Shown here one piece after another: positions 11,570-62,794 of a stretch of DNA of 64,000 nt (within the stretch, counting starts at the first letter, position 1; each line of letters begins with the position of its first letter). The translations under genes and the position numbers were made by a program. The stretch covers positions 9,288 to 73,287 of the forward strand of contig CAWIXU010000004.1 of NCBI GenBank assembly GCA_963840175.1, in the 5' to 3' direction. The notes beneath the pieces are model-generated. The model searched no databases and was not told the DNA's origin. It saw only the letters and a program-made list of their open reading frames with translations. The DNA is from an uncultured Acidimicrobiia bacterium (GTDB lineage: Bacteria; Actinomycetota; Acidimicrobiia; Spongiisociales; ZC4RG35).

Positions 11570-12122
11570 CCCCCGGAGGGGGGAGTACCCGAGCGAAGCG
11601 AGGGGGTAGGGGGCGTTTTCTCGAGACCCAGGAGCTCAACCCTCTTCTATTCCCCTCGAAAAGGAACTACTCGTTCAACATGGCCCGACCCCGTCACACC
11701 GACCTCGCCGCGAACGAGAGCACGGGAGCTTCAGAAACGGGATGACCGTCTCAGAGGCGCGGGTGTGGCAGGTGATCCGCGGCGGACAATGCGGCGCCCG
11801 GTTCCGTCGGCAGGTTCCGATCGGACGGTGGATCGTCGACTTCGCCAGTCTGCAAGCCACGACTGGTGCTCGAAATCGATGACGAGTCACACGACTGGCG
11901 TGACGAAACGGAACGCATCGAGTACATCGAAGCGGAGGGTTTTCCGATTTTGCGGCTGACAAACAAATACGTCGCCGAGGACCTCGGCGCCGTTCAGCGA
12001 ACGGTGAGCTTGTGGGTGGCGGAGCTCAAGGCAGGGCGAAGGCCGGAGTAGGGATCGCGTCTGGAGAGAACGCCCCCCTCGTCTGCCTCCTTCGTCGGCA
12101 GACACTCCCCCCTCCGGGGGAG
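11570..12122 (+). mobile_element. DUF559 cassette copy 1 (~550 bp) bounded by 17-bp terminal inverted repeats CCCCCGGAGGGGGGAGT; degraded copy
   Basis: Left TIR at 11570..11586 and right TIR (reverse complement) at 12104..12120. About 80% nucleotide identity to 41564..42114 over the whole length, including the flanks ...GAGCGAAGCG...CTCAACCCTCTTCTAT...AAAAGGAACTA and ...AACGCCCCCCTCGTCTGCCTCCTTCGTCGGCAG. Confidence 0.6.
11680..12051 (+). pseudogene. DUF559 (Vsr-like endonuclease fold) gene with at least two frameshifts
   Basis: Aligns to the intact paralog 41675..42043. One extra A near 11715 and one extra base near 11845 break the frame. ORFs 11765..11959 and 11866..12051 carry the pieces (...LEIDDESHDWRDETERIEYIEAEGFPILRLTN). 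Confidence 0.65.
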
Positions 12123-12175
12123 AAACGGGAGATCCCCTCCGGGGGGAGAAATTCAGGTCTGGGGATGAAACGGAT

Positions 12176-14826: not shown

Positions 14827-16377
14827 TTGCGCACTCCCAGCGGAATCGAAATCGAGGTTGTCTACGACCAACCCGCCGATCCCGACAAAATCGGCAGTCC
14901 GGGTGAGTATCCGTTCACCCGCGGCCCTCATCCCACGATGTATCGCGGACGGCTCTGGACGATGCGTCAGTACGCCGGCTACGGCACCGCCGACGCCACC
15001 AATCGCCGGTTTCGTGAGCTCCTCGCCGCCGGGCAGACCGGCCTATCGACTGCCTTCGACCTGCCGACGCAGATGGGACTCGACAGCGACCACCCGTTGG
15101 CCGAGGGAGAGGTCGGCAAGGTCGGAGTGGCGATCGACACCCTCGACGACATGCGCCGTCTCTTTCGGGAGATCCCTCTCTCCGAGGTGTCCACCTCGAT
15201 GACGATCAACGCCACGGCTCCGATCCTGCTCCTGCTCTATCAGCTGGTGGCGGAGGAGCAAGGCGTCGATGGCAAGGAAATCCGGGGCACCGTGCAGAAC
15301 GACATCCTCAAGGAGTACGTCGCCCGCGGCACCTACATCTACCCGCCGGGGCCGTCGATGCGGATCGTCACCGACGTCTTCTCGTACGCGGCCAAGGAGC
15401 TCCCGGCCTTCAACCCGATTTCGATCTCCGGCTATCACATCCGCGAAGCCGGCTCCACCGCCGCCCAGGAACTCGCGTTCACGATCGCCCATGGCCTCGC
15501 CTACGTGGATGCCGCCCTGAAAGCCGGCCTCGACATCGACGACTTTGCTCCCCGGCTCTCATTCTTCTGGAACAGCCACAACCTCTTCTTCGAGGAGGTA
15601 GCCAAGTTCCGTGCAGCCCGCCGATTGTGGGCCGACCTGATGCGGAATCGCTTCGGAGCCAAAGACGAGCGGTCGTGGGCGATGCGGTTCCACACCCAGA
15701 CCGCCGGTTCGACTCTGACCGCGCAGCAGACCGGAAACAACGTGGTGCGCACGACCGTCCAGGCCATGGCCGCCATCCTCGGAGGGACGCAATCGCTGCA
15801 CACCAACTCTTTCGACGAGGCCGTTGGACTGCCGACCGACGAATCGGCCCGTCTCGCCTTGCGGACCCAGCAGGTACTCGCCCACGAATCCGGCCTCGCG
15901 GATGACAGTCGATCCGCTGGCCGGCTCCTACTTCGTCGAGGAGCTCACCAACCAGCTCGAAGCCTCGGCCCGCTCACTGCTCGACGCAGATCGAAAGGAT
16001 GGGGGGCGCGGTGGCGGCAATCGAGAGCGGGGTGGACGCAACGTCAGATCGAAGAGGCGGCCTACGAAGAGGCCCGTCGCCAGGAGTCAGGCGAATCGAT
16101 CGTGCTCGGGGTGAACCGATATGTAGTCGGCGATGAGGCTGAGATTCCGGCGTTGAGAATCGACCCTGAGCTGGAGCGCGAGCAAAAGGCGCGCCTCGGC
16201 CAATGGAAGGCAGAGCGCTCGGCAACTGAAGTCGAATCCGCCCTCGACGCCGTCACCATCGCAGCCGGAGACGGGACCAATTTGCTTTATCCCATGAAGG
16301 AAGCGCTTGTCGCCGGTGCAACCTTGGGCGAGTGTTCCGAGGCGATGCGGGCCGTGTTCGGGAGCCACCGACCGTGA
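14827..16377 (+). CDS. Methylmalonyl-CoA mutase family protein, catalytic (beta/alpha)8 domain only with no B12-binding domain; frameshift near 15900
   Basis: ORF 14827..16377 (RGPHPTMYRGRLWTMRQYAGYGTADATNRRFRELLAAGQTGLSTAFDLPTQMG...). The C-terminus ...LYPMKEALVAGATLGECSEAMRAVFG ends at 16377, so the protein is about 520 aa. Confidence 0.8.
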   Translation: MRTPSGIEIEVVYDQPADPDKIGSPGEYPFTRGPHPTMYRGRLWTMRQYAGYGTADATNRRFRELLAAGQTGLSTAFDLPTQMGLDSDHPLAEGEVGKVGVAIDTLDDMRRLFREIPLSEVSTSMTINATAPILLLLYQLVAEEQGVDGKEIRGTVQNDILKEYVARGTYIYPPGPSMRIVTDVFSYAAKELPAFNPISISGYHIREAGSTAAQELAFTIAHGLAYVDAALKAGLDIDDFAPRLSFFWNSHNLFFEEVAKFRAARRLWADLMRNRFGAKDERSWAMRFHTQTAGSTLTAQQTGNNVVRTTVQAMAAILGGTQSLHTNSFDEAVGLPTDESARLALRTQQVLAHESGLADDSRSAGRLLLRRGAHQPARSLGPLTARRRSKGWGARWRQSRAGWTQRQIEEAAYEEARRQESGESIVLGVNRYVVGDEAEIPALRIDPELEREQKARLGQWKAERSATEVESALDAVTIAAGDGTNLLYPMKEALVAGATLGECSEAMRAVFGSHRP

Positions 16378-17744
16378 CCACCGACCCCAAGCGAACCCGC
16401 TTTCTGATTATCGGCGCCGGCCCGGCCGGCACCGCCGCCGCCACCAACGCGGCCGCGCTAGGCGCAAAGGTCACTCTGGTCGAGGACCAGATCGTCGGTG
16501 GCGCGGCCCATCTTTGGGATTGCATTCCCTCCAAGACCATGATCGCCACCGCCGTGCGGATCGACTCGATGCGCAACGCCCCCCGGCTCGGGGTGACCGC
16601 CGCGCCCGGGCAGCGTCGACAGCGCCCAACTAGCCGAGCGAATCTCCATCATCTCCGGCGACATCAACCGCAGCTGGGTCGACCTCCTCAGCAGCCAGGC
16701 GGTCGAGATCATCAACGGGAAGGCCCGGCTGACCGGTCCAATCAGGCGATCGTCGAGGGAGATGACGGCGAACAGCACCGATCGAGCTTTGACGTCTGCC
16801 TGCTCTCGACCGGCTCGGCTCCCGCGTGTCCCGGCCTGGGCAGTCATCGACGGAGAACGAATCCTGACGACTCGCGACGCCTACGACCTCGAGCGAGGTG
16901 CCCGAACAGTTGATCGTGATCGGTTCGGGGGTCACCGGAGTCGAGTTCGTGCACATCTTCGAGTCGCTCGGTTCGGACGTCACCCTGGTGGTCAGCCGTC
17001 AGCAGATCCTTCCCCACCGCGATCCCGAGGTCGCAGCGGTGCTGGAAGAGAACTTCCTCGAAAGCGGGAGTGCGTCTGGTCATCGGCGCTCGCGCGATCG
17101 GGATTGATCGAACCGAAGACGGAGTCAGGGTTCGCTGCGACGACGGGCGGGTGGTCGAAGGCACCCACGCCTTGCTGGCGATCGGCTCGGTCCCGAACAC
17201 CGACTGATCTCGGACTGGGCGAGCTCGGCATCAAGGAGAGCGGCGGTTTCATCCAGGTCGACGAGCATCAGCGGACCTCGGTTCCCCACATCTATGCCGC
17301 AGGAGACTGCACCGGCCAGTTGCTGCTTTCCTCGGTGGCTGCAGTGCAGGGCCGGAAGATCGCCCGTCACGCGATGGGCTTGCCGGTCACACCGATCGAC
17401 TACTCCAAGGTGAGCCAGGCGATTTTCACTGAGCCCGAGATCGCCTCGGTCGGCCTTGAGGAGGCCGAGCTGGCCGCGGGAGGTCGCAAGGTGCGCACAA
17501 CCAAAGTGCCCTTTGCCGCCAACGCTCGGGCGGTGCTGCAAGGAAATCCCCGCGGCTTCGTCAAAGTCATGTCGGATCCCGCCACCGGAGTCGTCCTGGG
17601 CGGGAGCATCGTCGGCCACCGCGCCTCGGAGCTGATCGGGATCATGGCCCTCGCGGTCAAAGCGCGGGTCACGGTCAACGTCCTCGTCGACACCCTGATG
17701 GTGCACCCCTCCTCTCGGAAGCGATCAGCGAAGCAGCGGAGTGA
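16374..17744 (+). CDS. Pyridine nucleotide-disulfide oxidoreductase, LpdA-like (single-Cys CIPSK motif like M. tuberculosis Rv3303c NAD(P)H quinone reductase); frameshifted
   Basis: GTG at 16374 overlaps the upstream stop. FAD-binding motif IIGAGPAGTAAA. Active-site region GGAAHLWDCIPSK has one Cys instead of CxxxxC. NAD-binding VIGSGVTGVEF in ORF 16898..17107. Dimerisation domain in ORF 16762..17784, ending ...SEAISEAAE at 17744. Confidence 0.7.
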
Positions 17745-17772
17745 GACGTCAGATCAGACGTCAGACATCAGA
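17743..17772. repeat. Heptad repeat arm (GACGTCA GATCA GACGTCA GACATCA) immediately after the lpdA-like stop
   Basis: Tandem GAC(G/A)TCA heptamers seen in the sequence. Inverted copy at 18623..18656 and paired copies at 45427..45505. Confidence 0.7.
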
Positions 17773-17896
17773 ATGTCGTTGTAGCCAACGTTCGTGAACT
17801 GCCGACACACGGTTCCAGAGCGCATCTACGGCGCTCGGAGGTCCGTCGGGGCGAATGGCGAAGACATCTGCCAAGGCGGCGAACCAGTCGCCCGGA

Positions 17897-18656
17897 TTAT
17901 CCAGCGTGGTTGAAGTCGACTCGTGCTCTCGACGTCGGGTGAGGACGCATCCCCGGAGAATGTCGGTCCCGTTCTCGAGTCGAAGCTGGGCGGTGACGAC
18001 TCCGGCAAAGCTCGATTCGGGGGACGTCGACAGGTGCTTGTGCCGTTCGCCGACACGCGTCCATCTCCACCTGGCCTGTCCGAAAGCTCATGCCCGAGAA
18101 GGAGCCGGTGGAATCGTGGGTGAAGTGCCAATCGCCAACCCCATCATCGGTCTCCTCGAAGCGAAAGGTCATTGGGTTCTGGGCATAAGTGCCCGAGATC
18201 ATTGGAAGCGGGTCGTATAGCCCGTCGCCAAGTCCCGCGTCCACCCACCAATCTCCATTCGGGTTCTCAGCCGTTGGGAGGTCATGGGCAACAAGCACCA
18301 GGTGATTCGACAACCACTTGACGTCGGGACCCTCGGGTCCATGTACGCCGCCGATGTGGCGGGTCACGTGATAGCCCAGCGAACCCAACACGAGGGATAA
18401 GGCTCCGTTCATCTGATAGCAGTAGCCGCCGCGGCTGTGGTTGGCGATTCGGTCCAGCGAGGCGGTCGGGTCGATGCTCCAGTTCTCGGACATATGAATC
18501 CACACGGATTCGTAAGGCACCCGTTCGACCCAAGCCCGATGGAGCCGGCTGCAGTGCCTCCGCGGAGGGAGGCTCCACCTCGACCCCGATGCGTCCTAGC
18601 GCCCGAACGACGTCCGGCTCTATCTGATGTCTGAAATCTGATGTCTGATGTCTCAC
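17897..18656 (-). CDS. nat: Arylamine N-acetyltransferase, frameshift near 18480-18520
   Basis: ORF 17897..18520 has the catalytic-Cys motif HSRGGYCYQMNG and the downstream NAT fold. The N-terminal YxxRIG-type segment (VRALGRIGVEVEPPSAEALQ) is in the frame of ORF 18282..18794. Confidence 0.7.
18623..18656. repeat. Heptad repeat arm, inverted relative to 17743..17772 (TGATGTC TGAAATC TGATGTC TGATGTC)
   Basis: Reverse complement of the 17743 arm at about 85% identity. Overlaps the nat 5-prime end and the stop codon of the upstream lipoprotein gene. Confidence 0.7.
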
Positions 18657-20154
18657 TGGTAGCTCACGTATACCGGTACGGGGTCGAGGGCTAGCACCTC
18701 CGCTGGAGTGGCTCCTCCCCGAGGGGTGTCTTCGTCGTAGAAGTTCTTCCAGCCCCAGAGGAAATTGTCGCCGTTTGCGGTTAGCGCGTCCCACGTGTCG
18801 TATTTGGTGCCGAGCGGTCCCTGTCCGTCCATCTGGATTACAGTCGCCAGCTCAGGATGAGTGACGATCTGGTCGCGGTTCTCGATCATGTCGAGACGGA
18901 ACTGATGGAGCAGGAAGAACTTCTGCGGGCAGCTTGTTCTCGCGGACGAGAGCGGCGAGCCACTCGGAAACCTGGTTGACCTCGGCGGCGTCGACCGATC
19001 CGATTTGGCGGAGATGGACCTGGTCGGGTTCCAGCCGCCACTCCGGGTCGAGGGCGAGACCGACGTGAGGCAAGCCGAGAAATTCTTCGTACGGCCTTGG
19101 CCTGGGTGAGGAAATCGGTGCGACCTGGTTGCAGATCGAGGATCACGTACACATCGTTGGCGGCGGCAACCTCGATCCACGGTCGGATGACGTCGAGGCT
19201 CATCTCTTCGGAGTAGTTGTTGTCGTCGCCCGGGAAGGCGGACGCGACGGTGGCGATGATTTCGAAGCCCAAGACGACTGGAGTCCCGTCGGCGTCATAG
19301 CCGGCGGCGATCTCAGCCGCCCTCGCGACGGCTTCCTCGGGACCCTGCTCGCCGAGGACCCCAAGCGCCGACGTGGTCGGGTTGCCATAGAGCGCCACCA
19401 ACCTTCGACCCGGGAACAGCTTGAGCCCGCCACCGGGGAGCTCTGGGGCGTTGACGAGCGCGCCGCTTTGCCATTCGATGAGCTCGGGATCAAAGCCCCC
19501 GGCGACGAACATCTCCTGCGCGGGGGTCGATCTCACCGACTCGAGCAACGCCTGGTCGCCGAGCATGTTGTGTGGATCGGCAAGGACGACCCGGTCACCC
19601 CGTAAGCCGGCGAGAGCGGTCACGGGAGCGACGAGGTCGGACCTGGTGGCGTCCGCCAGCCAGATATTTTCGCCTTCTGTGTCATCGGTTGGGTTTCTGC
19701 CGGCGGCCGCGATGGCTTCCTGTAGAGCGATCGAGTTGCTGGGAATTCCGGCCACCCCACTAGGGAGGGCGCCCCCAACGACCGAGATCGAGTGTGGTGC
19801 GAGGCGGCGTAGCTCATCTACGACCTCGGCGTCAGTCCCTGCGACCAAAAGCGGTGCCTTGATGGAGGCGGCGTAAGCGCCTGCTGCCTCGAGTTCCGGC
19901 GTCGAACCGCTCGCCACCACGACGTGGTCGGCGCACGCCAGGGTGGCCTTGGAGAGGGCGATCGAGAGCTCGACGGGGTCGGTGCTGGTGAAGATCTGCT
20001 GATCGGGTGCGATTCGACATTCCCGGGCCGTGGTTGTGGTTATCGCCTCAGTCGTGGTCGTCGCCGACGGTATTGACGAAGGCGTGCTCGTGCCACCGGC
20101 CGAAGTGCATGAAGCCAACACCAGCCAGACAATCACGGCCGATTTTTGGTTCAA
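18653..20154 (-). CDS. Lipoprotein with repeated cell-wall-binding-like modules and a C-terminal putative glycoside-hydrolase-like domain; frameshift near 19100
   Basis: Minus-strand translation (the ORF track labels 18886..20343 as plus, but it matches the reverse complement). Lipobox VIVWLVLASC. Three repeats of the type ELEAAGAYAASIKAPLLVAGTDAEVVDELRRLAPHSISVVGG. C-terminal DVYVILDLQPGRTDFLTQAKA... continues in ORF 18653..19180. Confidence 0.45.
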
Positions 20155-21909
20155 CGGATGACGGCCAGCACGGCTCCCAGCGAGACGGTGTCGCCGGCTT
20201 GCACCCGGAGGTCGACGACCTCGCCGGCGCTCGGGGAGCGCACCTCGTTCTCCATCTTCATCGCCTCGAGCACGCAGATCGGCTGGTTCGGCTTCGACCT
20301 TGTCGCCTGCCTTCACATGCACTTTGACGATCGTGCCCTGCATCGGCGCGCGTGACGACTCCGTCGTTGCGCACCCGACGCGGCGGGCCGGTCGAGCTTC
20401 GGCCGAGCTCTCCGCGTCATCCCGGGTCCAGTCGCGGGACCAGCGTCAGGTGACCAGTAGGTGACCGCAAACCGCCGTCCCACCGATCTCGACGGTCATG
20501 TCGCGGCGGGCGAGCTCCTCGTCCTCGGGCAGCGTTGGCTGCGACGAGCGGCGTGGCGTCGGGGAACTTGACCTGATCCTCGAGCCAGCGGGTGTAGTGA
20601 CGGCCTTCGAGAAAGTCGGGATGATCGAGCACAATGAGATGCGCAGGGATGGTTGTCGCCACCCCGGTGATCAGAAATTCCTCGAGGGCGCGACGGCCGC
20701 GTCGGATGGCTGGTCGCGATCGCTACCCCACACGACCAGCTTGGCCATCAGGTTGTCGTAGTACTGGCTCACCCTGGTGGTCGGGCTGGATCCAACCATC
20801 GACGCGCACGCCCGGCCCGGCCGGTTCGCGGTAGTCGGCGACCTGACCTGGCGTCGGCAGAAAGCCGCGCAGCGGATCCTCGGCGTTGATCCGGAATTCG
20901 ATGGCGTGGCCCCGCGGGCGTGACCGAGTCGAAGTCGAGCTTCTCGCCCTGCGGCGATCCGCAGCTGCCACTCCACGAGGTCGAGACCGGTGACCATCTC
21001 GGTGACCGTGTGTTCGACCTGGAGGCGGGTGTTCATCTCGAGGAAGTAGAACTCGCCCGATTCGGGATCGAAGAGAAACTCGACGGTGCCGGCGTTGACG
21101 TATCCGCACGAGCGCCCGGCGGCCAGGGCGGCTTCGCCCAAGAGCGTTGCGCTGTTCGGCGGTCATACCCGGGGACGGGGTTTCTTCGATCAGCTTCTGG
21201 TGTCGTCGTTGCACGGTGCAGTCGCGCTCGCCGAGGAAGACACCGTGGCCGGCTGGGTCGAAGAGGATCTGCGCTTCGACGTGACGCGGGCGCGGCAGGT
21301 ACTTCTCGACGTAGACCTCGGGGTTTCCGAAGTAGGCGTCGGCCTCGCGCCTGGCCCCGTCGAACGCCGCCACCGATCTCGCTCGCGCTGTTGACCACGC
21401 GCATTCCTTTGCCGCCGCCGCCGTGGGCGGCCTTGATCGCGATCGGATAGCCGAACTCTTCGGCGAGGGCGGCGACCGTCTCCACCGATTCGGCCGGTTC
21501 GGAGGTCCCTGGAACCGTCGGCAATCGCCGCCTCGGCGGCATGTCGCCGCGAGGTGATCTTGTCGCCCATCGCCTCGATGGCCGCGGGAGGAGGGCCGAC
21601 CCAGGTGATGCCGGCCCTGGTGACCGCCTCGGCGAACCCGGCGTTCTCGGCGAGAAAGCCGTAGCCGGGATGGATCGCATCGGCCCGAGCGGCCGCGGCG
21701 ACCTGGAGGATCTTTTGGGCGTTCAGATAGGACTCGGCCGCGGGCGCCGGTCCCACGTTCCAGGACTCGTCGGCCAACTGCACGTGCAGCGAGTCGCGAT
21801 CGAGGTCCGAATAGATGGCAATCGTGTGGATGCCCATCTCCTGGGCGGTGCGGATGACCCGCACCGCGATCTCTCCCCGGTTGGCGATGAGGAGGCGGGA
21901 AATGGTCAC
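20151..21909 (-). CDS. accA: Acyl-CoA carboxylase alpha subunit (biotin carboxylase plus biotin carboxyl carrier domain), several frameshifts
   Basis: GTG start at 21909 ([21 protein letters not shown]). ATP-grasp segments in ORFs 21190..21909, 21033..21680 and 20671..21141. Biotinyl domain ...[10 protein letters not shown] / ...[31 protein letters not shown]...VIR with stop at 20151. Confidence 0.85.
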
Positions 21910-43609: not shown

Positions 43610-44173
43610 ATGCTTTGTGTGGGCTGCGGAAGGTTGGGCGATGACCTCTGTCGCGCCTGCCGGCAAAATCTGGTGGAGGCGCCCGACCGTTTGCTGGCCT
43701 CCGGATTGCTGGTTCGCTCGTGCTTCGAGCACACGGGCGTCGCCAAAACAGTCGTGCACGCCTTCAAATATCAGGGAAGCGATCGCGCAGGGTGGCTGCT
43801 TGCTCGAGCCCTCGCCTGCCTGCTGCCGCCGACGTGGCACTCTGGTGCCGCTACCTCCGCGAGCTGGCGCACCGTCACTTACGGAGTCGACCCCGCTCGT
43901 GAGCTGGCCAAAAAAGTTTCGTTGCTGACCGGCAGACAGATTTGGATGGGTTTGGAGCCACCATTGCACAGCTCCGCCCAGGCCGGACGCGTACGAACCG
44001 AACGCGACCCTCCGGCGTTTACGGTCAGCGAGGAGCCTCCCACCGACTTGATCCTGATCGACGATGTTGTCACCACTGGCCGAACCCTGATGAGCGCCCA
44101 ACGTTCGCTCGGCCAGGGCGACCGTCCAAAACCGGTTCTTTTGGCCCTGTCCGCGACAGCTACCAGTGACTAG
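43610..44173 (+). CDS. ComF-family phosphoribosyltransferase
   Basis: ORF 43487..44173 has an N-terminal zinc-finger (CVGCGRLGDDLCRACRQ) and the PRTase motif LILIDDVVTTGRTL. Confidence 0.75.
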   Translation: MLCVGCGRLGDDLCRACRQNLVEAPDRLLASGLLVRSCFEHTGVAKTVVHAFKYQGSDRAGWLLARALACLLPPTWHSGAATSASWRTVTYGVDPARELAKKVSLLTGRQIWMGLEPPLHSSAQAGRVRTERDPPAFTVSEEPPTDLILIDDVVTTGRTLMSAQRSLGQGDRPKPVLLALSATATSD

Positions 44174-44228
44174 TCTTTTCTCGGGAGTGTCGATAGTCCA
44201 AGTGCCAAAAGCTCTATTGGGGGAGTGA

Positions 44229-44765
44229 ATGGAAGTTCGTGTTCATACGCGTAACACCAGCATCGACGATCGGGTCAGGGAACTAGCCGCCGAAAAGCTC
44301 GGCCACGCCGCGCGGGTGTTCGAAAGCCAGGTGGCCGACATGGATGTCGAGTTCTCCGAGGAGCACAACCCCCGCCTGGCAGCCGAGCGCTACCGCCTCG
44401 AGGTCACCACGGCGGCAGCTGGCAAGGTGATCCGGGTGGTTTCAACGGCGGCCTCGGCCGAAACGGCCGTTGATCAGGCCGTGGACCGCCTCAACCTCCA
44501 ACTACGGCGTCTTAAAGGGAAATTGATCGAAAAACACCGGAAACACGCCGTCCATGACGGTTTGGTCGAGCCTCCCACAGAACCCACGAACGAGATTGTT
44601 CGTATCAAGCAATTCGTTATGAAGCCGATGACCGTAGAGGAAGCAGTGCTGCAGATGGAGTTGCTTGGTCATGACTTTTTCTTCTTTCACAACGACGGCA
44701 CCCAGCGCCAGAGCGTGCTGTATCGCCGTCGGGACGGTCAATTGGGTTTGATCGAATCAGCGTGA
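44229..44765 (+). CDS. hpf: Ribosome hibernation promoting factor (long form)
   Basis: Intact ORF 44229..44765. RaiA-like N-domain plus C-terminal dimerisation domain (EIVRIKQFVMKPMTVEEAVLQMELLGHDFFFFHNDGTQRQSVLYRRRDGQLGLIE). Confidence 0.85.
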   Translation: MEVRVHTRNTSIDDRVRELAAEKLGHAARVFESQVADMDVEFSEEHNPRLAAERYRLEVTTAAAGKVIRVVSTAASAETAVDQAVDRLNLQLRRLKGKLIEKHRKHAVHDGLVEPPTEPTNEIVRIKQFVMKPMTVEEAVLQMELLGHDFFFFHNDGTQRQSVLYRRRDGQLGLIESA

Positions 44766-45418
44766 AGAATCCGACTGTTCTTGTTGTCGACGACGCGCCT
44801 ATTTTTCAGGCGGGTTTGGCGGCTGCCCTCAAAGTGGAGGGCTTCGACGTCGTGGCGATTGCCTCCGATGCCCTCACTGCAATTGCTGAAGCCCGCCGTC
44901 ACCGCCCGGCTCTGGTTGTTCTGGACGTGTTGATGCCGGGGATCTCGGGTCTCGATGTCGTTGACAAGATCACCGACGCCTCGCCGGGAACCAAGGTTGT
45001 GCTGCTGACGTCGAGCGACTCCGAGGAGGACTTGCTCACGGCGATCAAGGCAGGAGCTTCCGGCTACATCATCAAAGACACGCCATTCCCCAAGCTGGTG
45101 GCGGCGATGAATGAAGTCGTCAAAGGGGGAGCCGTAGTGTCGCCCAAGCTTGCGGCCCGGCTCTTTGATGTGGTGGCCCATCTGCTGCGCAATCGGGATC
45201 TCAACGCCACCCGCCGGCCCTCTCTCACCGGTCGCGAGGTGGAGATCCTGCAATGGATCGCCGATGGTCGAACCTCGCGCGAGATAGGCGAACAGCTCTA
45301 CATCTCCGAGAACACCGTCAAGAACCACGTCCGCAACATCTTGGACAAGCTGGGGATGCAGTCCCGGCACGAAGCGGTCCGCTACGCCGAACACGCGGGA
45401 CTTCTGAATCGCCGATAG
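44762..45418 (+). CDS. NarL/LuxR-family two-component response regulator
   Basis: Intact ORF 44762..45418. Receiver domain (VLVVDD...VVLDVLMPGISG...SSDSEEDLLTAIKAGASGYIIKD) plus LuxR HTH (LTGREVEILQWIADGRTSREIGEQLYISENTVKNHVRNILDKLG). Confidence 0.85.
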   Translation: MKNPTVLVVDDAPIFQAGLAAALKVEGFDVVAIASDALTAIAEARRHRPALVVLDVLMPGISGLDVVDKITDASPGTKVVLLTSSDSEEDLLTAIKAGASGYIIKDTPFPKLVAAMNEVVKGGAVVSPKLAARLFDVVAHLLRNRDLNATRRPSLTGREVEILQWIADGRTSREIGEQLYISENTVKNHVRNILDKLGMQSRHEAVRYAEHAGLLNRR

Positions 45419-45426
45419 GCGATTCA

Positions 45427-45505
45427 GAGACGTCAGACATCAGACGTCAGACATCAGACTGGGATTCCATCTGAAGTCTGAAATCTGATGTCTGATGTCT
45501 TCTCA
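45427..45505. repeat. Long imperfect inverted repeat (about 24-bp stem) built from GAC(G/A)TCA heptads, between the response regulator and secA; possible terminator/attenuator or regulator-binding array
   Basis: Left arm GAGACGTCAGACATCAGACGTCAGACATCAGAC, loop TGGGATTCCATCTGAA, right arm GTCTGAAATCTGATGTCTGATGTCTTCTC. Same repeat family as 17743..17772 and 18623..18656. Confidence 0.65.
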
Positions 45506-45528
45506 CCCCCGATACCATTCCGGCCTGA

Positions 45529-48124
45529 ATGTCCATCTTTTCCAAGCTGCTCAAGGCCGGTGAAGGCAAGACCCTGCGCGAATTCGAGCGTCTCGTCGTC
45601 GAGGTCAATGCCCTCGAACCGACCATCTCAGCGCTGGATGACGCTCAACTAGCCAACCAGACCGTCGAGTTCCGGCGCCGGCTCGACGCCGGGGAGCCGC
45701 TCGATGACCTGGCCGTCGAGGCCTTCGCCACGGTCCGGGAGGCAGCGCAACGAGTCATCGGGGAGCGTCACTTCGACGTCCAGGTGATCGGCGCTTTGGC
45801 ACTCCATCGGGGGATGGTGGCCGAGATGAAGACCGGCGAGGGCAAAACCCTGGTTTCGTCGATGCCCGCCTATCTCAACGCCCTTCCTGGCACCGGCGTG
45901 CACATCGTCACCGTCAACGACTACCTCGCCTCCCGCGACGCCGACTGGATGGGCGCCATCCATCGTTTCCTCGGGCTCAACGTCGGGCTCATCCAAACCG
46001 GTATGGAACCCGGAAAGCGGCAATCCGGCCTACGCCGCCGACATCACCTACGGAACCAACAACGAGTTCGGGTTCGACTATCTGCGTGACAACATGGCGA
46101 TGCGGGCGAGCGACCGTGTCCAGCGCGGCCACGTTTATGCGATCGTCGATGAGGTCGACTCGATCCTGATCGACGAAGCCCGCACCCCGTTGATCATTAG
46201 CGGCCGGCTGTCGGATGCGGCCAAGTGGTATCGAGACTTCGCTCGAATTGCGAACCGGTTACGACGCGATGAGCACTACGAAGTCGATGAAGCCAAGCGA
46301 CAGGTATTGACCACCGAGGAAGGCGTCGGATTCGTCGAAGAGATACTCGGAGTCGAAAACCTCTATGACCACGCCGCGGTCGACTTCGTCCACCATCTCG
46401 AGTCATCGCTGCGAGCCAAGGAGCTCTACCAGCGGGACGTGGAATATCTCGTTGACCAGGGCGAAGTCAAGATCGTTGACGAATTCACCGGGCGCGTACT
46501 CGAAGGTCGTCGTTATTCAGAAGGGCTTCACCAGGCCATCGAGGCGAAGGAAGGGGTGAAGATCAAAGAAGAGAATCAGACCCTCGCCACGATCACTCTC
46601 CAGAACTACTTCCGGCTCTACCAGAAGCTTGCCGGGATGACCGGCACCGCCGAAACCGAAGCGGCCGAGCTGGCGCAGATTTATGGACTCGAAGTGCTGG
46701 TCATCCCGCCGAACCGGACCGTGGCGCGAGCCGACCAACCCGACCTGGTCTTTAAGTCAGAGGATGCCAAGTTCCAAGCAGTCGTCGATGACATCGTCGC
46801 GCGCCATGAGGCGCAACAGCCCATCCTGCTGGGCACCGTCTCGATCGAGAAGTCCGAGCGTCTCTCGAAGATGTTGCAAAAGCGGGGCATCGAGCATGAA
46901 GTGCTCAACGCCAAGAATCATGCCCGGGAGGCTGAAATCATCGCGCAGGCGGGGCGTCCCGGCGCGGTGACCGTGGCCACCAACATGGCCGGGCGGGGAG
47001 TCGACATCAGGCTGGGTGGGAATCCCGAAGGTCTGGCGCGCGTCGAGCTCAAGCGCCAGCAGGTGCCGGAAGAGGAGTTCGAGAAAAAGCTCGCCGAAAC
47101 CACTGCCCGCTACGCCGCCGAGATCGCTCCGATCAAGGAAAAGGTGATCGAAAGCGGTGGGCTTTACGTCGTGGGCACCGAGCGTCACGAATCCCGCCGG
47201 ATCGACAATCAGCTGCGTGGTCGTTCGGGCCGCCAGGGTGATCCGGGCGAGTCCCGGTTCTATTTGTCGCTGGGAGACGACCTGATGCGTCGTTTCTCTG
47301 GGGATCGAGTTTCGTCGTTGATGGATCGGATGAAGATTCCCGACGACGTACCCATCGAGGCCGGCATGGTGACCAAGGCCATCGAACGAGCGCAGAAAAC
47401 GGTGGAAGCACAGAACTTTGAGCTTCGCAAGAACGTCCTCAAATTCGATGAGGTGATGAACAAGCAAAGAGAAGTCATCTACGACTGGCGCGTGGATTTG
47501 CTCGAGGCGTCGGGTGAGGATCTGGTCACAGAATGGATCGAGGTCGTAGTCGCCGATACCGTCGAGGCGGTTTTTCCACCCGAGCTCGCACCGTCGGAAT
47601 GGGATTGGGAATTGCTCAACAAAGAGCTAGTTCAGATTTATCCGTCAACGCTCAAAGAGCCGGGACCGGAAGGATCCTCGCTGGAGGATGTCATCGACGC
47701 GGCCGTCGAAGAGGCCAACGCGGCCTATGCAGCGAAGAGCAAGGAATTGGGGCTCGAGAACATGCGCCAGGTCGAGCGCCAGGTGATTCTGTCGGTGATC
47801 GACAACAAGTGGCGCGAGCACCTATCCGAAATGGACTACCTGCGCGCTGGAATCGGCCTGCGCGCCATGGGCCAACGCGATCCGCTGGTCGAATATCAGC
47901 GCGAGGGCTACTCGATGTTCAGCGAACTGGTCGAATCGGTGAAGCGTGACACCGTTCGCTATTTGTTCCACGTCCAATTGGCGGAGCCCGCCGCCCCGGC
48001 TGCCCCCAAAGTCGTCAACGATGATCAGTCAAAGTCAATTCGAAGCAGCGGCGCCGTGGGCCGCAACGATCCCTGCCCATGTGGCAGTGGCAAGAAATAC
48101 AAACGCTGCCACGGTGCGGCGTAA
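45529..48124 (+). CDS. secA: Preprotein translocase subunit SecA, one frameshift near 46010-46090
   Basis: N-terminal ORF 45529..46089 ([18 protein letters not shown]...[10 protein letters not shown]...[19 protein letters not shown]). ORF 46094..48124 covers the rest through the C-terminal zinc motif [14 protein letters not shown]. Confidence 0.9.
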
Positions 48125-53650: not shown

Positions 53651-53673
53651 GGCTCGGCCGTTCTTCGTAATCG

Positions 53674-54024
53674 TGGAGGCGGCGGGAATCGGACCCGCGT
53701 CCCATGAGTCGTCAGCGCCGGCATCTCCGAGCGCAGCCGTCGGCGAGCTTGTCGGCAAGAAGGACCCCAACGGCGGGCTTCCCACTCGCTTATCCGGAGT
53801 TGATCTTTGCCCTCCGGTCCCGGATCCCGGAGGACGCATCCTGCATTGCGACGCCCGATTCCGGCGAGGCAGGCGCCCACCGGGCGGACGGGCTGCGTTA
53901 TTTAGGCAGCCAGTGCGAAGTTGTCTTCGGCACTTGTGTTTGTTTCCGGCTCTTTAACGAGGTTCCGGAGACCTCGGCTCGCTTCCGACGCATCAACACT
54001 CATGGTCGAAACCATTTCGCCCCC
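53674..54024 (-). ncRNA. ssrA: tmRNA (ssrA), about 351 nt; tag reading frame ...GCC GAA GAC AAC UUC GCA CUG GCU GCC UAA (AEDNFALAA)
   Basis: Minus-strand 5-prime end GGGGGCGAAAUGGUUUCGACC (compare M. tuberculosis GGGGCUGAACGGUUUCGAC). 3-prime tRNA-like end GGACGCGGGUCCGAUUCCCGCCGCCUCCA(+CCA). Acceptor stem GGGGGCG/CGCCUCC with G3-U70. Tag ends ALAA, then UAA UAA. Located just downstream of smpB as in other Actinobacteria. Coordinates +/-2 nt. Confidence 0.8.
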
Positions 54025-61039: not shown

Positions 61040-62700
61040 AGATCTCCTCCAGTCGCTTGGTGAGTCGGAAGCTCGTGGCCGACGAGACGGCGAGGATCAC
61101 GAAGATGATCACGATGACCGCCGAGGCGAGGGCGAATTGATTGCCGCGTCCCGCTCCTTGGGCCAGGTTGAAGGTGAAGGAGATCAGCAGGTCCGACGCC
61201 CCCACCGGGACGTCGTAGCCGCTCAGAGGCGGCCCACCTCCGGAGAGCAAGAAGATCAGGACGAAGTTGTTGAAGTTGAAGGCGAAGGCCCCGATCAGAA
61301 GCGGCGCAGTCGACACCAGCAGAAGCGGCAACGTGACCGATCGAAACACCTTGAACGGGTTGGCACCGTCCACCCGAGCTGCTTCCTGCAATTCGACCGG
61401 AACTGAGGTCAGAGCGCCGGATGAGATCAAGAACATATAGGGGAAACCGAGCCACAAGTTGACAATGAAGATGGCAACGAGGACCCACCATGGGTTCCCG
61501 AGCCAGTCGACTCCCGGTATCCCGAACGTTTCGAGGATGCCGTTGACCTTTCCAAACCGATCATTGAGCAAGCCGCGCCAGATCAGGATCGAGAGGAAAC
61601 CCTGGGATGGCATAGGGGATGATGTAGATCGACCGGTAAAACGCCCGGCCCTTCATCGCCTTCGTCTTGGAGGGCAATGGCCAGGACAAGACCCAAACGC
61701 GAAGTTGAGGATCACCGAGCCGAATGCGAAGACGATGTTCCACGTAAAGACTCGTAGAAAGGGGCCGCGGATTCGTTCGTTGGTGAGAATGTTGGCGTAG
61801 TTGTCAAAGCCAACCACCGAGCGCCAGCCGATGAAGCGGCTCTCGATCGCCGAGGTGGGAACCTGATTGCACACCCCACCAGAACAGGTGATGCTCGTCT
61901 CCGTTGCCGCGATCGCGGTTCGGGCAACGTCCTCTTCGGGCACTCCGTCGCAGAGGAAGTTGCCCGTGCCGGCCACACAGACGCGTTGGGTCTGGTTATC
62001 GGTGAGGGTGTCGGTGGCCGGGTCATAGCTAAAGCGCTGCCCGACGTTGCGGACATTGACGCTGGAAAGCGTCTCGAGAGCTGCCTGCCGGCCATCGGGC
62101 AAGTCGAGGATCAGGTCCTGCAAGGTCCCTGACATCCCGGCCAGACGCAAACGGGGAATCAACGTGTAATCGCCCAGCGTTTCGGGGGGAGCGGCAGGAT
62201 CGATCGCGGCGTCCCCGGTGTTGAGGTGCGAATCGGTTATCGGATCAGAATCGCTCGGCCGCGGAGTGCCAAAGAACGGCTCGGCTTCGCCGCCACCGAT
62301 CAGGAAGGCGAGCTGGCCGTCGTCAGTGGTGTAGACGGACAGCGGCAGAGTTTGATCGGTGCCGTCGCTTGCCATCGGGATCGCCTCGAGGGCGCTGATG
62401 GCCTGCGGCTTGGAGAGGAAGTTGCCAGTTCGCCAGTTGGTCAGCGAAACGTAGAAGGTATAGAAGACCGGGTAGACGACGAAGATCGCCATCAGGATCA
62501 GGCCGGGAGTCAACCAACGCGAAGCCGAGGCTCGCGGGCTCAGATAGGCCCAGTTGACGAGCACCGCGGCCCCAATCAGAAATCCGAACAAGGGTCCAGG
62601 ATTGATTGGCAACGAGCTGGGGGATCGCAAAGATGATCAGCGCGTCGAAGATCGCGACCGCGATGGTGCGAATCCACATTCCTTTCGCGGTTCGCTGCAA
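61029..62700 (-). CDS. Carbohydrate ABC transporter permease (MalF-like, with large periplasmic loop), frameshifts
   Basis: C-terminal ORF 61029..61613 (EAARVDGANPFKVFRSVTLPLL). N-terminal and periplasmic-loop part in ORF 61653..62630. First TM (MWIRTIAVAIFDALIIFAIPQLVANQSW) in the frame of ORF 62323..63909. Confidence 0.7.
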
Positions 62701-62794
62701 ACCGCGGTCCCACGCCACCTGTTCCTCCTCCCACCAGGCGTTCGAGTTGTGGAGCGAGCCCACCACCGAAGTGGTGGGCTCACTCGGATGGATC

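What the first reader, a model, noticed from the sequence alone, without database searches (positions are those of the whole stretch)
45427..45505. Long heptad-built hairpin between a NarL-family response regulator and secA
About 33-nt arms of tandem GACGTCA/GACATCA heptamers form an imperfect 24-bp stem with a 16-nt loop, 9 nt after the response regulator stop and about 25 nt before the secA start. It could be an intrinsic terminator or attenuator controlling read-through into secA. Because NarL/LuxR-type regulators recognise heptameric half-sites arranged as direct or inverted repeats, the array could also be a binding-site cluster for the adjacent regulator. The same repeat recurs at the nat locus, which would then be a second member of the regulon.
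Basis: inference. Interest (0 to 1): 0.5.

Follow-up and report, generated by a model that had tools for sequence, protein, structure and literature searches.

The report
Fast-evolving heptad-repeat palindrome before secA
The long hairpin between the response regulator and secA is real, but it is one copy of a rapidly changing palindrome built from tandem 7-base repeats, a little-studied kind found in many bacterial phyla, and it is not a binding-site cluster for the neighbouring regulator.

Summary
Window 45428-45500 holds two 31-nt inverted arms of (AGACRTC)n/(GAYGTCT)n. They are 87% complementary, start 9 nt after the regulator's stop codon and end 28 nt before the secA ATG. The RNA fold has z = -10. 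The same arms recur at 17745-17772 and 18622-18653, split around a nat gene.

The regulator-operator and regulon reading is refuted.
- The hairpin exists only where the regulator is at least 93% identical.
- It is absent at 90%, 80% and 67% identity.
- At 82% identity a hairpin of an unrelated heptad (GCTCCGY) takes its place, although the recognition helix is identical.
- The same heptad array occurs in at least 119 loci across about ten phyla.

It is not a canonical intrinsic terminator, because there is no U-tract.

Best reading: a lineage-restricted, multi-copy palindrome of heptanucleotide simple-sequence repeats, resembling cyanobacterial STRRs and REP elements. It gains and loses whole heptads, and it is copied between loci. 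Its arms stay complementary even when the unit sequence is replaced. Its likeliest effect is incidental and REP-like: a stable 3' stem-loop on the hpf-regulator transcript, upstream of secA's own -10-like box. This effect is inferred, not shown. Interest is moderate. It is a new member of a known but poorly understood kind.

The parts
45428..45458 (+). Left (5') arm: AGACGTC/AGACATC heptads, 4.6 copies. It has no stop codon in any frame on the + strand.
45459..45469 (+). Centre of the palindrome (CTGGGATTCCA). In close relatives the core is the perfect palindrome TGGGATCCCA.
45470..45500 (+). Right (3') arm: TCTGAAG/TCTGAAA/TCTGATG heptads, 4.4 copies, with TGA in all three frames.
45403..45428 (+). 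Perfect 11-bp hairpin spanning the regulator's TAG stop codon. Its 5' half (TCTGAATCGCC) is coding sequence that resembles a right-arm heptad. It is only partly conserved in L120/L121.
44762..45418 (+). Upstream gene: NarL/FixJ-type response regulator (Response_reg + GerE). It is below every NCBIfam equivalog cutoff.
45513..45518 (+). -10-like hexamer TACCAT, 10 nt before the secA ATG. A TANNNT box 7-10 nt before the ATG is kept in orthologues with or without the hairpin. This is an inferred secA promoter giving a near-leaderless mRNA.
   Evidence: read from sequence; not detected by the E. coli-type scan
45529..48124 (+). secA. It is split into two ORFs in this assembly by a frameshift near 46090, but is intact (864-865 aa) in relatives.
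17745..17772 (+). Second copy of the left arm. It abuts the lpd stop codon TGA (17742-17744) and contains the nat stop codon (TGA on the - strand, 17761-17763).
18622..18653 (+). Second copy of the right arm. It abuts the stop codon of the 18653-19180 gene (TGA on the - strand, 18653-18655). A possible nat GTG start (18656-18654) overlaps that stop as GTGA, so the array would be read as the nat N-terminus.
17761..18656 (-). Arylamine N-acetyltransferase (nat, PF00797) lying between the two arm copies. It is frameshifted in this assembly.

Best explanation
The feature is one copy of a lineage-restricted, multi-copy palindromic element made of tandem heptanucleotides, 5'-(AGACRTC)n - short centre - (GAYGTCT)n-3'. 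It belongs to the over-represented bacterial heptamer simple-sequence repeats, of which the cyanobacterial STRRs, the TAACTGA arrays and the Xanthomonas GGGAATC arrays are described examples.

Shown:
- It changes by gain and loss of whole heptads and by A/G changes within units.
- It has been copied between at least two loci of this genome.
- It arose recently and is dispensable.
- At orthologous sites in sister lineages the unit sequence is replaced on both arms together, so complementarity persists while sequence does not.

Inferred:
- The arrays grow by replication slippage in 7-nt register.
- The inverted arrangement is made or maintained by fold-back or template-switch copying, or by selection on the stem.
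- Once transcribed with hpf and the regulator, the element folds into a stem-loop of about -50 kcal/mol, 9 nt past the stop codon.
- That stem-loop acts like a REP element: a barrier to 3' exonucleases and a partial, U-tract-independent block or pause to read-through.
- secA is then expressed mainly from its own -10-like box just downstream.
- This effect is probably incidental to a selfish or neutral repeat, not a dedicated control device.

The element is not an operator for the adjacent regulator.
For: Structure and non-randomness.

Heptad indels and A/G changes among the same species:
- Window: 4 left units, alternating G/A.
- L120/L121: 3 left units, all G, plus a 5-nt indel at the right end.
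- L206-L209: 5 left units and 3.4 right units.

Copying between loci: same-side arms of the secA and nat loci match at 28/28 aligned positions (plus one 2-nt gap) and at 30/31. The two arms within one locus match only 84-87%.

Recent origin and turnover at the regulator-secA spacer:
- Regulator at least 97% identical: same hairpin.
- 93% (L210): same unit family, but the left arm is degenerate.
- 90% (L212), 80% (L213), 67% (L125): none.
- 82% (L122): a GCTCCGY hairpin.

Turnover at the lpd/geneX junction:
- Window: AGACRTC arms.
- L203: AGGGGTC/GACCCCT arms.
- L204/L205: a CAGTAGG/CCTACTG hairpin.
- L202: nothing, with the two stop codons 2 nt apart.
These lineages differ by about 20% at the nucleotide level.

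Generality:
- At least 119 loci in Acidimicrobiia, Gemmatimonadota, Bacteroidota, Gammaproteobacteria, Acidobacteriota, Planctomycetota, Firmicutes and others.
- In those loci period-7 arrays number 219, of which 96 have other units. Period-6 arrays number 18 and period-8 arrays 7.
- 25 of the 119 have an inverted partner within 150 nt.

RNA-level hints:
- The sense strand folds better than the antisense strand in window, L120 and L121 (-50.0/-47.0, -34.7/-31.1, -41.4/-33.5 kcal/mol), because of G.U pairs.
- The order A-rich 5' arm then U-rich 3' arm is favoured 21:4.
- A -10-like box before secA is kept in all orthologues.

Literature: heptamer simple-sequence repeats are over-represented in bacteria, with polymerase slippage proposed as the cause, and inverted arrays are noted in Xanthomonas (PMC4692102). 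TAACTGA arrays are described in PMC4679880.
Against: - There are no transcript data, so the RNA role is pure inference.
- No U-tract follows the stem, and mycobacterial-type RNA polymerases are reported to need one (my own knowledge, not checked here).
- Related hairpins lie inside the conserved pafA-pafB-pafC-tatA operon (L002) and between divergent genes (L023), so they cannot all be strong terminators.
- At the nat locus the better-folding strand is antisense to nat. The G.U asymmetry is therefore a property of the element, not of the locus.
- Arm lengths are often unbalanced (5 against 3.4 units in L206). That fits neutral drift as well as selection.
- A crude flank analysis shows no strong enrichment at convergent gene ends: 63 co-directional, 18 convergent, 12 divergent.
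- How copies move between loci is unknown.
Confidence: 0.55

Rival explanations
1. Purely neutral or selfish DNA. The palindrome is a by-product of heptad slippage and fold-back copying and has no effect on hpf, the regulator or secA expression.
For: The element is absent from sister lineages with the same gene order. Units turn over fast. Arms are unbalanced or decaying (L206, L210). 94 of 119 related loci are one-orientation arrays with no hairpin. The arrays occur in every kind of intergenic context.
Against: Both arms change unit together at two independent loci. The A-rich-then-U-rich arm order is favoured 21:4 across phyla. A stem of -50 kcal/mol 9 nt after a stop codon is unlikely to be invisible to RNA polymerase, ribosomes or exonucleases (inference).
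Confidence: 0.3
2. Canonical intrinsic terminator or attenuator that controls read-through from the regulator gene into secA.
For: A very stable stem-loop lies directly after the stop codon. It sits between two co-directional genes.
Against: There is no U-tract and no terminator-like hit. The stem is far longer than those of typical terminators. No alternative anti-terminator pairing or leader peptide is evident, and Rfam finds nothing. The element is not conserved in orthologues that keep hpf-regulator-secA. secA appears to have its own -10-like box. Related hairpins sit inside operons.
Confidence: 0.1
3. Non-autonomous mobile element (MITE/REPIN-like), or a hairpin used as an integration site. 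The arms would be arrays of binding sites for an unidentified enzyme acting in trans, and nat would be cargo lying between the arms.
For: The whole asymmetric hairpin is shared by two loci at 97-100% arm identity. nat lies exactly between the two arm copies in the window, and between inverted arrays of another unit in L203. nat is absent where the arms are contiguous (L204, L205) or missing (L202). Arm polarity is fixed at 21:4 across phyla. The region downstream of lpd is a gene-content hot spot.
Against: No target-site duplication or conserved internal sequence was found. The unit sequence is not conserved between lineages, which is unlike the ends of a transposon recognised by its transposase. 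Arrays also flank core genes at successive junctions of the paf-tat operon, so flanking of a gene by arrays is common. No transposase was sought or found.
Confidence: 0.1
4. Binding-site cluster for the adjacent NarL-family regulator, with nat as a second regulon member.
For: GerE-type regulators bind inverted repeats (general knowledge). The array is adjacent to the regulator gene and recurs elsewhere.
Against: The recognition helix is identical in L122, but the heptad there is unrelated. The element is absent at 90%, 80% and 67% regulator identity. There is no match to TACYYMT. The same arrays occur in at least 119 loci of many phyla with unrelated neighbours. At nat the arrays overlap coding ends, not a promoter.
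Confidence: 0.03

Closest known systems
Heptanucleotide simple-sequence repeats: cyanobacterial STRRs (Calothrix/Nostoc), TAACTGA arrays (Beggiatoaceae, Cyanobacteria, Bacteroidetes; PMC4679880), and GGGAATC/GGGGAYT arrays (Xanthomonas, Nostoc; PMC4692102)
   Same: Tandem 7-nt units, mostly intergenic, with many copies per genome. Copy number and sequence vary between close relatives at the same site. They are sometimes arranged as inverted pairs able to form stem-loops, have a patchy cross-phylum distribution, and have no known function.
   Different: The unit AGACRTC was not found in the searched literature. The hosts are Acidimicrobiia and other soil or marine phyla. Here the array is a full palindrome through its centre, abuts or contains stop and start codons, and shows replacement of the unit on both arms together between lineages. 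It is not G-rich, so it has no quadruplex potential.
REP/BIME elements and REPIN doublets of Proteobacteria
   Same: Species-specific, multi-copy, imperfect palindromes in intergenic regions. They often lie just after stop codons or inside operons, turn over fast at orthologous sites, and have a hairpin-dependent effect on mRNA 3' ends (established knowledge). This is the best functional analogy.
   Different: REPs are not built from tandem heptads. They carry a conserved 5' GTAG and are tied to RAYT transposases. None of this was seen or tested here.
Rho-independent (intrinsic) terminators, including the U-tract-less 'I-shaped' hairpins proposed for Actinobacteria
   Same: A stable stem-loop directly downstream of a stop codon.
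   Different: There is no U-tract. The stem is about 30 bp rather than 5-14 bp. It is built of repeats, is multi-copy, and is not conserved with the operon.
NarL/NarP heptamer operators (7-2-7 sites, TACYYMT)
   Same: Only the number seven and an inverted arrangement.
   Different: There is no sequence match, the units are tandem and contiguous, and there is no co-conservation with the regulator.

Membership tests
Heptanucleotide simple-sequence repeats (STRR-like) | Head-to-tail copies of a 7-nt unit, at least 3 copies | tested here: met
   4.6 and 4.4 copies at 45428-45500, and 4.4 copies at each nat array
Heptanucleotide simple-sequence repeats (STRR-like) | Intergenic and multi-copy in the genome | tested here: met
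   Four arrays at two loci in 64 kb against 1.9 chance matches. Only the window could be scanned, not the whole genome.
Heptanucleotide simple-sequence repeats (STRR-like) | Copy number varies between close relatives at the same site | tested here: met
   3, 4 or 5 left units in L120/L121, the window and L206-L209
Heptanucleotide simple-sequence repeats (STRR-like) | Period 7 is over-represented relative to neighbouring periods in the host genomes | tested here: met
   219 period-7 arrays (96 of other units), against 18 of period 6 and 7 of period 8, in 825 kb of loci holding the repeat. In unselected regulator-orthologue loci the counts are 12, 14 and 1.
Intrinsic terminator | G+C-rich stem-loop directly after a gene | tested here: met
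   The stem starts 9 nt after the stop codon and folds at -50 kcal/mol. It is far longer and less G+C-rich than usual.
Intrinsic terminator | Run of U immediately 3' of the stem | tested here: not met
   The tail is UCUCACCCCC, and the scan gives 0 terminator-like sites
Intrinsic terminator | Transcript 3' ends map at the hairpin | not testable with these tools
   No RNA data are available
Operator of the adjacent NarL-family regulator | Match to the regulator's half-site (NarL: TACYYMT) | tested here: not met
   There is no TAC or GTA in 45428-45500. The true site of this particular regulator is unknown.
Operator of the adjacent NarL-family regulator | Site co-conserved with the regulator in orthologous loci | tested here: not met
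   Absent at 90%, 80% and 67% identity. A different heptad is present at 82% identity with an identical recognition helix.
Operator of the adjacent NarL-family regulator | Physical binding | not testable with these tools
   Needs EMSA or ChIP
REP/REPIN | Multi-copy intergenic imperfect palindrome, species-specific | tested here: met
REP/REPIN | Conserved 5' GTAG and an associated RAYT transposase | tested here: not met
   There is no GTAG in the arms. RAYT was not searched for genome-wide.
MITE | Terminal inverted repeats plus target-site duplication | tested here: inconclusive
   Inverted arms are present. No duplication is recognisable at either locus or in comparison with the array-free sites L202 and L212.
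Rfam cis-regulatory RNA (leader, attenuator, riboswitch) | Match to a curated covariance model | tested here: not met
   No hit at gathering score. The only sub-threshold hits are to eukaryotic miRNA and snoRNA models.

The most novel reading that the evidence does not exclude
Heptad palindromes of fixed polarity, 5'-(TCAGAnn)n...(nnTCTGA)n-3', are products or substrates of a dedicated, widely distributed enzymatic process. Candidates are a trans-acting transposase or recombinase, or a repeat-adding polymerase. That would explain four things: why period 7 dominates, why the same unit recurs across about ten phyla, why arm order is biased 21:4, and why an accessory gene (nat) sits exactly between the two arms of a copied hairpin in two lineages. 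The elements would then be a new class of mobile or gene-capturing repeat, not passive slippage products.
Probability: 0.1. Interest if true: 0.8.

Novelty: new member of a known kind. Interest (0 to 1): 0.4.

Why it matters
- For annotation: heptad-built hairpins next to NarL-type regulators look like operators or terminators, but they are repeat elements. Calling a regulon from their recurrence would be wrong.
- For biology: the excess of 7-nt simple-sequence repeats in bacteria and the role of STRR-type arrays have been unexplained for decades. This Acidimicrobiia clade offers a clean comparative series at two fixed loci: no element, a hairpin of one unit, a hairpin of another unit, and arms split around a gene. 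That series, together with cross-phylum recurrence of one unit and a strong polarity bias, could be used to separate slippage, fold-back copying, selection on RNA structure and mobility.
- For secA: at most, the element would modestly insulate it from upstream transcription.

Tried and rejected
1. Rfam at gathering score over the whole window and at permissive E-value over 45300-45650 gave only tmRNA elsewhere and meaningless miRNA and snoRNA hits.
2. The sigma-70 promoter and terminator consensus scan of 44100-45700 gave 0 and 0. The -10-like box I cite was read by eye and is an inference.
3. I classified the flanks of the 119 loci by longest ORF to test for enrichment at 3' ends. The result was noisy in high-G+C DNA and showed no strong bias: 63 co-directional, 18 convergent, 12 divergent. 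I do not rely on it.
4. I tried to fetch the regulator-secA spacer from the organisms of L204/L205, to test whether one genome uses one unit everywhere. No regulator homologue from those contigs appeared in the list. In any case L205 carries a second family, (AGACGCC)n, at 8009-8125, so 'one unit per genome' is false.
5. The gene-cassette idea for nat was weakened. Arrays also flank core genes at successive junctions (pafA/pafB and pafC/tatA in L002; a 143-aa ORF in L008). More distant lpd loci hold other genes and no arrays.
6. No target-site duplication was found.
7. A full-text search for the exact arrays found 0 papers.
8. G.U strand asymmetry as evidence for a sense-RNA structure holds at secA but reverses relative to nat, so it is only weak evidence.
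9. A viral-contig scan found only 9 hits, which does not indicate phage spread.
10. I recalled a resemblance of GTCTGACG to the Tn3 inverted repeat. I treat it as coincidence and did not test it.

Full report
**1. What is in the sequence**

Window 45428-45500 reads AGACGTCAGACATCAGACGTCAGACATCAGA-CTGGGATTCCA-TCTGAAGTCTGAAATCTGATGTCTGATGTCT.
- The two 31-nt arms are 87% complementary, with 11 nt between them.
- Tandem Repeats Finder.6 and 4.4 copies of a 7-nt unit. The left arm is a perfect 14-nt repeat.
- The left arm begins 9 nt after the TAG of a Response_reg + GerE regulator (44762-45418). The right arm ends 28 nt before the secA ATG at 45529.
- As RNA, 45400-45530 folds at -71.4 kcal/mol against -32.9 +/- 3.8 for shuffles (z = -10.1). 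The fold includes a second, perfect 11-bp hairpin across the regulator's stop codon.
- The 79-nt element alone gives -50.0 kcal/mol.
- A two-heptad pattern matches 10 times in the window against 1.9 expected.
- These are the only period-7 arrays in 64 kb, and this is the outstanding local inverted repeat.

**2. The nat copy**

- The same heptads occur at 17745-17772 (+ type) and 18622-18653 (- type).
- These are the two halves of the same asymmetric hairpin, about 850 bp apart.
  - The left arms of the two loci are identical at 28/28 aligned positions, with one 2-nt gap.
  - The right arms are identical at 30/31.
  - The two arms of one locus match only 84-87%.
- Between them lies an arylamine N-acetyltransferase gene on the minus strand (PF00797).
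- The arrays fill the gene junctions completely.
  - The lpd-like gene ends ...SEAAE-TGA at 17742-17744, after correcting one homopolymer error.
  - nat ends ...HERWLQRHSDV-TGA inside the left array.
  - The 18653-19180 gene ends at TGA 18653-18655.
  - An in-frame GTG overlapping that stop (GTGA) would start nat, so that it reads through the right array.

**3. Source and quality**

- An identical regulator protein occurs on two ENA contigs (L120, L121). Homologues are labelled Acidimicrobiia.
- SecA is intact there (864 aa) but split in the window. lpd, nat and the neighbouring gene also look frameshifted, so the window is probably an error-prone long-read assembly.
- The hairpin itself is not an artefact: four short-read assemblies from other samples carry it (L206-L209).

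**4. Orthologous regulator-secA spacers**

The hpf-regulator-secA order is widely conserved. The spacer changes along a gradient of regulator identity:

| Regulator identity | Loci | Spacer |
|---|---|---|
| 100% | window, L120, L121 | AGACRTC hairpin; 4 or 3 left units; A/G differences; a 5-nt indel |
| 97% | L206-L209 | Same hairpin; 5 left and 3.4 right units |
| 93% | L210 | Same unit family on the right arm; degenerate left arm plus an extra G+C hairpin |
| 90% | L212 | 55-nt spacer; no heptads |
| 82% | L122 | Hairpin of a different heptad, (GCTCCGY)n, with its inverted complement |
| 80% | L213 | No heptads |
| 67% | L125 | No heptads |
| 70% or below (other loci) | e.g. L123-L124, L126-L131, L134, L137-L138 | No heptads; usually another gene between the regulator and secA |

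- All spacers keep a TANNNT box (TACCAT or TAGCAT) 7-10 nt before the secA ATG.
- I read that box as secA's own promoter, giving a near-leaderless mRNA. This is an inference; the E. coli-type scan finds nothing.

**5. Orthologous lpd junctions**

- L202 has neither nat nor repeats, and the two stop codons are 2 nt apart.
- L204 and L205 are sister lineages (87-89% nt identity). They lack nat and carry a single hairpin of CAGTAGG/CCTACTG heptads. Its end unit supplies the neighbouring gene's TAG.
- L203 has nat, flanked by inverted arrays of a third unit, AGGGGTC/GACCCCT. The nat GTG start and TGA stop lie inside those arrays.
- Window, L202 and L203 are about equally distant from one another (78-81% nt identity).
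- More distant genomes hold other genes after lpd and no heptads.
- At two independent loci, then, the unit sequence is replaced between lineages, yet both arms change together. The arms flanking nat can pair at -45 to -53 kcal/mol in both nat-bearing lineages.

**6. Distribution**

- The pattern AGACRTCAGACRTCAGACRTCAGA, for which I estimated about 2 chance matches from the collection's size, hits at least 119 stretches in the species-representative genome collection.
- The hits come from Acidimicrobiia, Gemmatimonadota, Bacteroidota, Gammaproteobacteria, Acidobacteriota, Planctomycetota, Desulfobacterota, Firmicutes, Streptomyces and one archaeal MAG.
- Of the 119 loci, 94 are one-orientation arrays and 25 have an inverted partner within 150 nt.
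  - 21 of those have the window's order.
  - 4 have the opposite order.
  - Because a palindrome reads the same on both strands, this bias concerns the polarity of the unit relative to the dyad. It remains unexplained.
- In these loci, period-7 arrays of many other units adjoin the AGACRTC arrays. They outnumber every other period: 219 in all, of which 96 have other units, against 18 of period 6 and 7 of period 8.
- Only 9 viral contigs carry the array.

**7. Interpretation**

- The regulator-operator idea fails on every test available here.
  - There is no match to the NarL heptamer.
  - There is no co-conservation with the regulator.
  - The recognition helix is identical where the heptad is different.
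  - The same array occurs with unrelated neighbours in many phyla.
- The canonical-terminator idea fails on the U-tract. It also conflicts with related hairpins lying inside the paf-tat operon and between divergent genes.
- What the data do show is a repeat element with four properties:
  - (a) it gains and loses whole heptads;
  - (b) it is copied between loci as an asymmetric unit;
  - (c) it is young and dispensable;
  - (d) it keeps arm complementarity while its sequence turns over.
- In close relatives the centre is itself a perfect palindrome (TGGGATCCCA). That fits an inverted-duplication or fold-back origin, or correction of one arm against the other.
- Weak hints favour an RNA-level effect in the sense orientation:
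  - G.U pairs make the sense strand more stable in window, L120 and L121, although this asymmetry travels with the element;
  - the favoured layout puts the A-rich arm 5' and the U-rich arm 3' on both strands.
- I therefore commit to a heptanucleotide simple-sequence palindrome with an incidental REP-like action on the hpf-regulator transcript: a 3' stem-loop barrier with partial insulation of secA.
  - Confidence that it is such a repeat and not an operator: about 0.9.
  - Confidence that it has the stated RNA effect: about 0.35-0.4.

**8. Comparison with known systems**

- The kind is known. Heptamer simple-sequence repeats are over-represented in bacteria, and polymerase slippage has been proposed as the cause.
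- STRRs, TAACTGA arrays and GGGAATC arrays are described, including occasional inverted pairs, but their function is unknown (PMC4692102 and PMC4679880).
- The AGACRTC unit was not found in the searched full-text library.
- I file the feature as a new member of that kind. REP elements are the closest functional analogy, but membership in that family is not met (no GTAG; RAYT untested).

**9. Verdict**

- This is a real and striking structure, but it is an ordinary kind of repeat element, not a regulatory device.
- It carries some genuinely puzzling population-level properties: cross-phylum recurrence of one unit, arm polarity bias, replacement of the unit on both arms together, and a gene nested between the arms.
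- Interest is 0.4.

Noticed in passing
window 45529-46089 / 46094-48124; 16332-17744; 17761-18656; 18653-20343: secA, the lpd-like gene, nat and the neighbouring lipoprotein-like gene are each split by frameshifts. SecA is intact (864-865 aa) in near-identical contigs, so these are most likely homopolymer errors of a long-read assembly, not pseudogenes.
   Followed up: partly
window 45513-45518, and the same position in L122, L125, L212 and L023: A TANNNT box (TACCAT or TAGCAT) sits 7-10 nt before the secA ATG in all orthologues. It also sits before an unrelated gene after the L023 hairpin. This suggests near-leaderless transcription starts right next to these elements.
   Followed up: partly
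window 53671-54024 (-): A tmRNA gene (Rfam RF00023, 157.7 bits) lies downstream of the conserved secA-prfB-ftsEX-smpB block.
   Followed up: no
window 17745-18656; L203 1402-2293; L202, L204, L205, L214-L216: The interval between lpd and the acyl-CoA carboxylase genes is a gene-content hot spot. Depending on lineage it holds nat, a cell-wall-type lipoprotein, an AhpC/redoxin gene, a PNPOx gene, LtrA or a hypothetical gene.
   Followed up: partly
L205 8009-8040 and 8093-8125: Two direct arrays of (AGACGCC)n, one base different from the window's unit, occur in a genome whose lpd junction carries a CAGTAGG hairpin. One genome can therefore hold several heptad families.
   Followed up: no
L079 182-233: A loop-less head-to-head palindrome, (GATGTCT)n directly joined to (AGACGTC)n. 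It is one of only four cases with the reversed arm order.
   Followed up: no
L003 682-790; L005 5143-5244; L093 487-609; L073 1144-1314; L019 6573-6667: Arrays of unrelated heptads (TTTAGCG, TCCAGCG, CAGCTTG, GGTCGTT, CTCCAGG, GGACGAC) directly adjoin AGACRTC arrays. In L019 the array abuts what looks like the 3' end of a tRNA gene.
   Followed up: no
L002 4229-4291 and 6638-6717: Heptad hairpins occupy two successive intergenic junctions (pafA/pafB and pafC/tatA) of the conserved actinobacterial paf-tat gene block.
   Followed up: partly
window 17742-17744, 17761-17763, 18653-18655; L204 about 4902; L202 1106-1113: Stop codons co-vary with the repeat unit: TGA with TCAGACR arrays and TAG with CAGTAGG arrays. 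The array-free L202 has the gene end CAG-TAG, the same heptad as the L204 unit, which hints at local seeding of an array from the gene's own end.
   Followed up: partly
window 62752-62785, 61916-61971, 12105-12148: These are the only other strong local hairpins in the window: 15-nt arms at 93% complementarity with a 4-nt loop, 23-nt arms at 83%, and 15-nt arms at 80%. Terminator-like hairpins seem rare in this genome.
   Followed up: no
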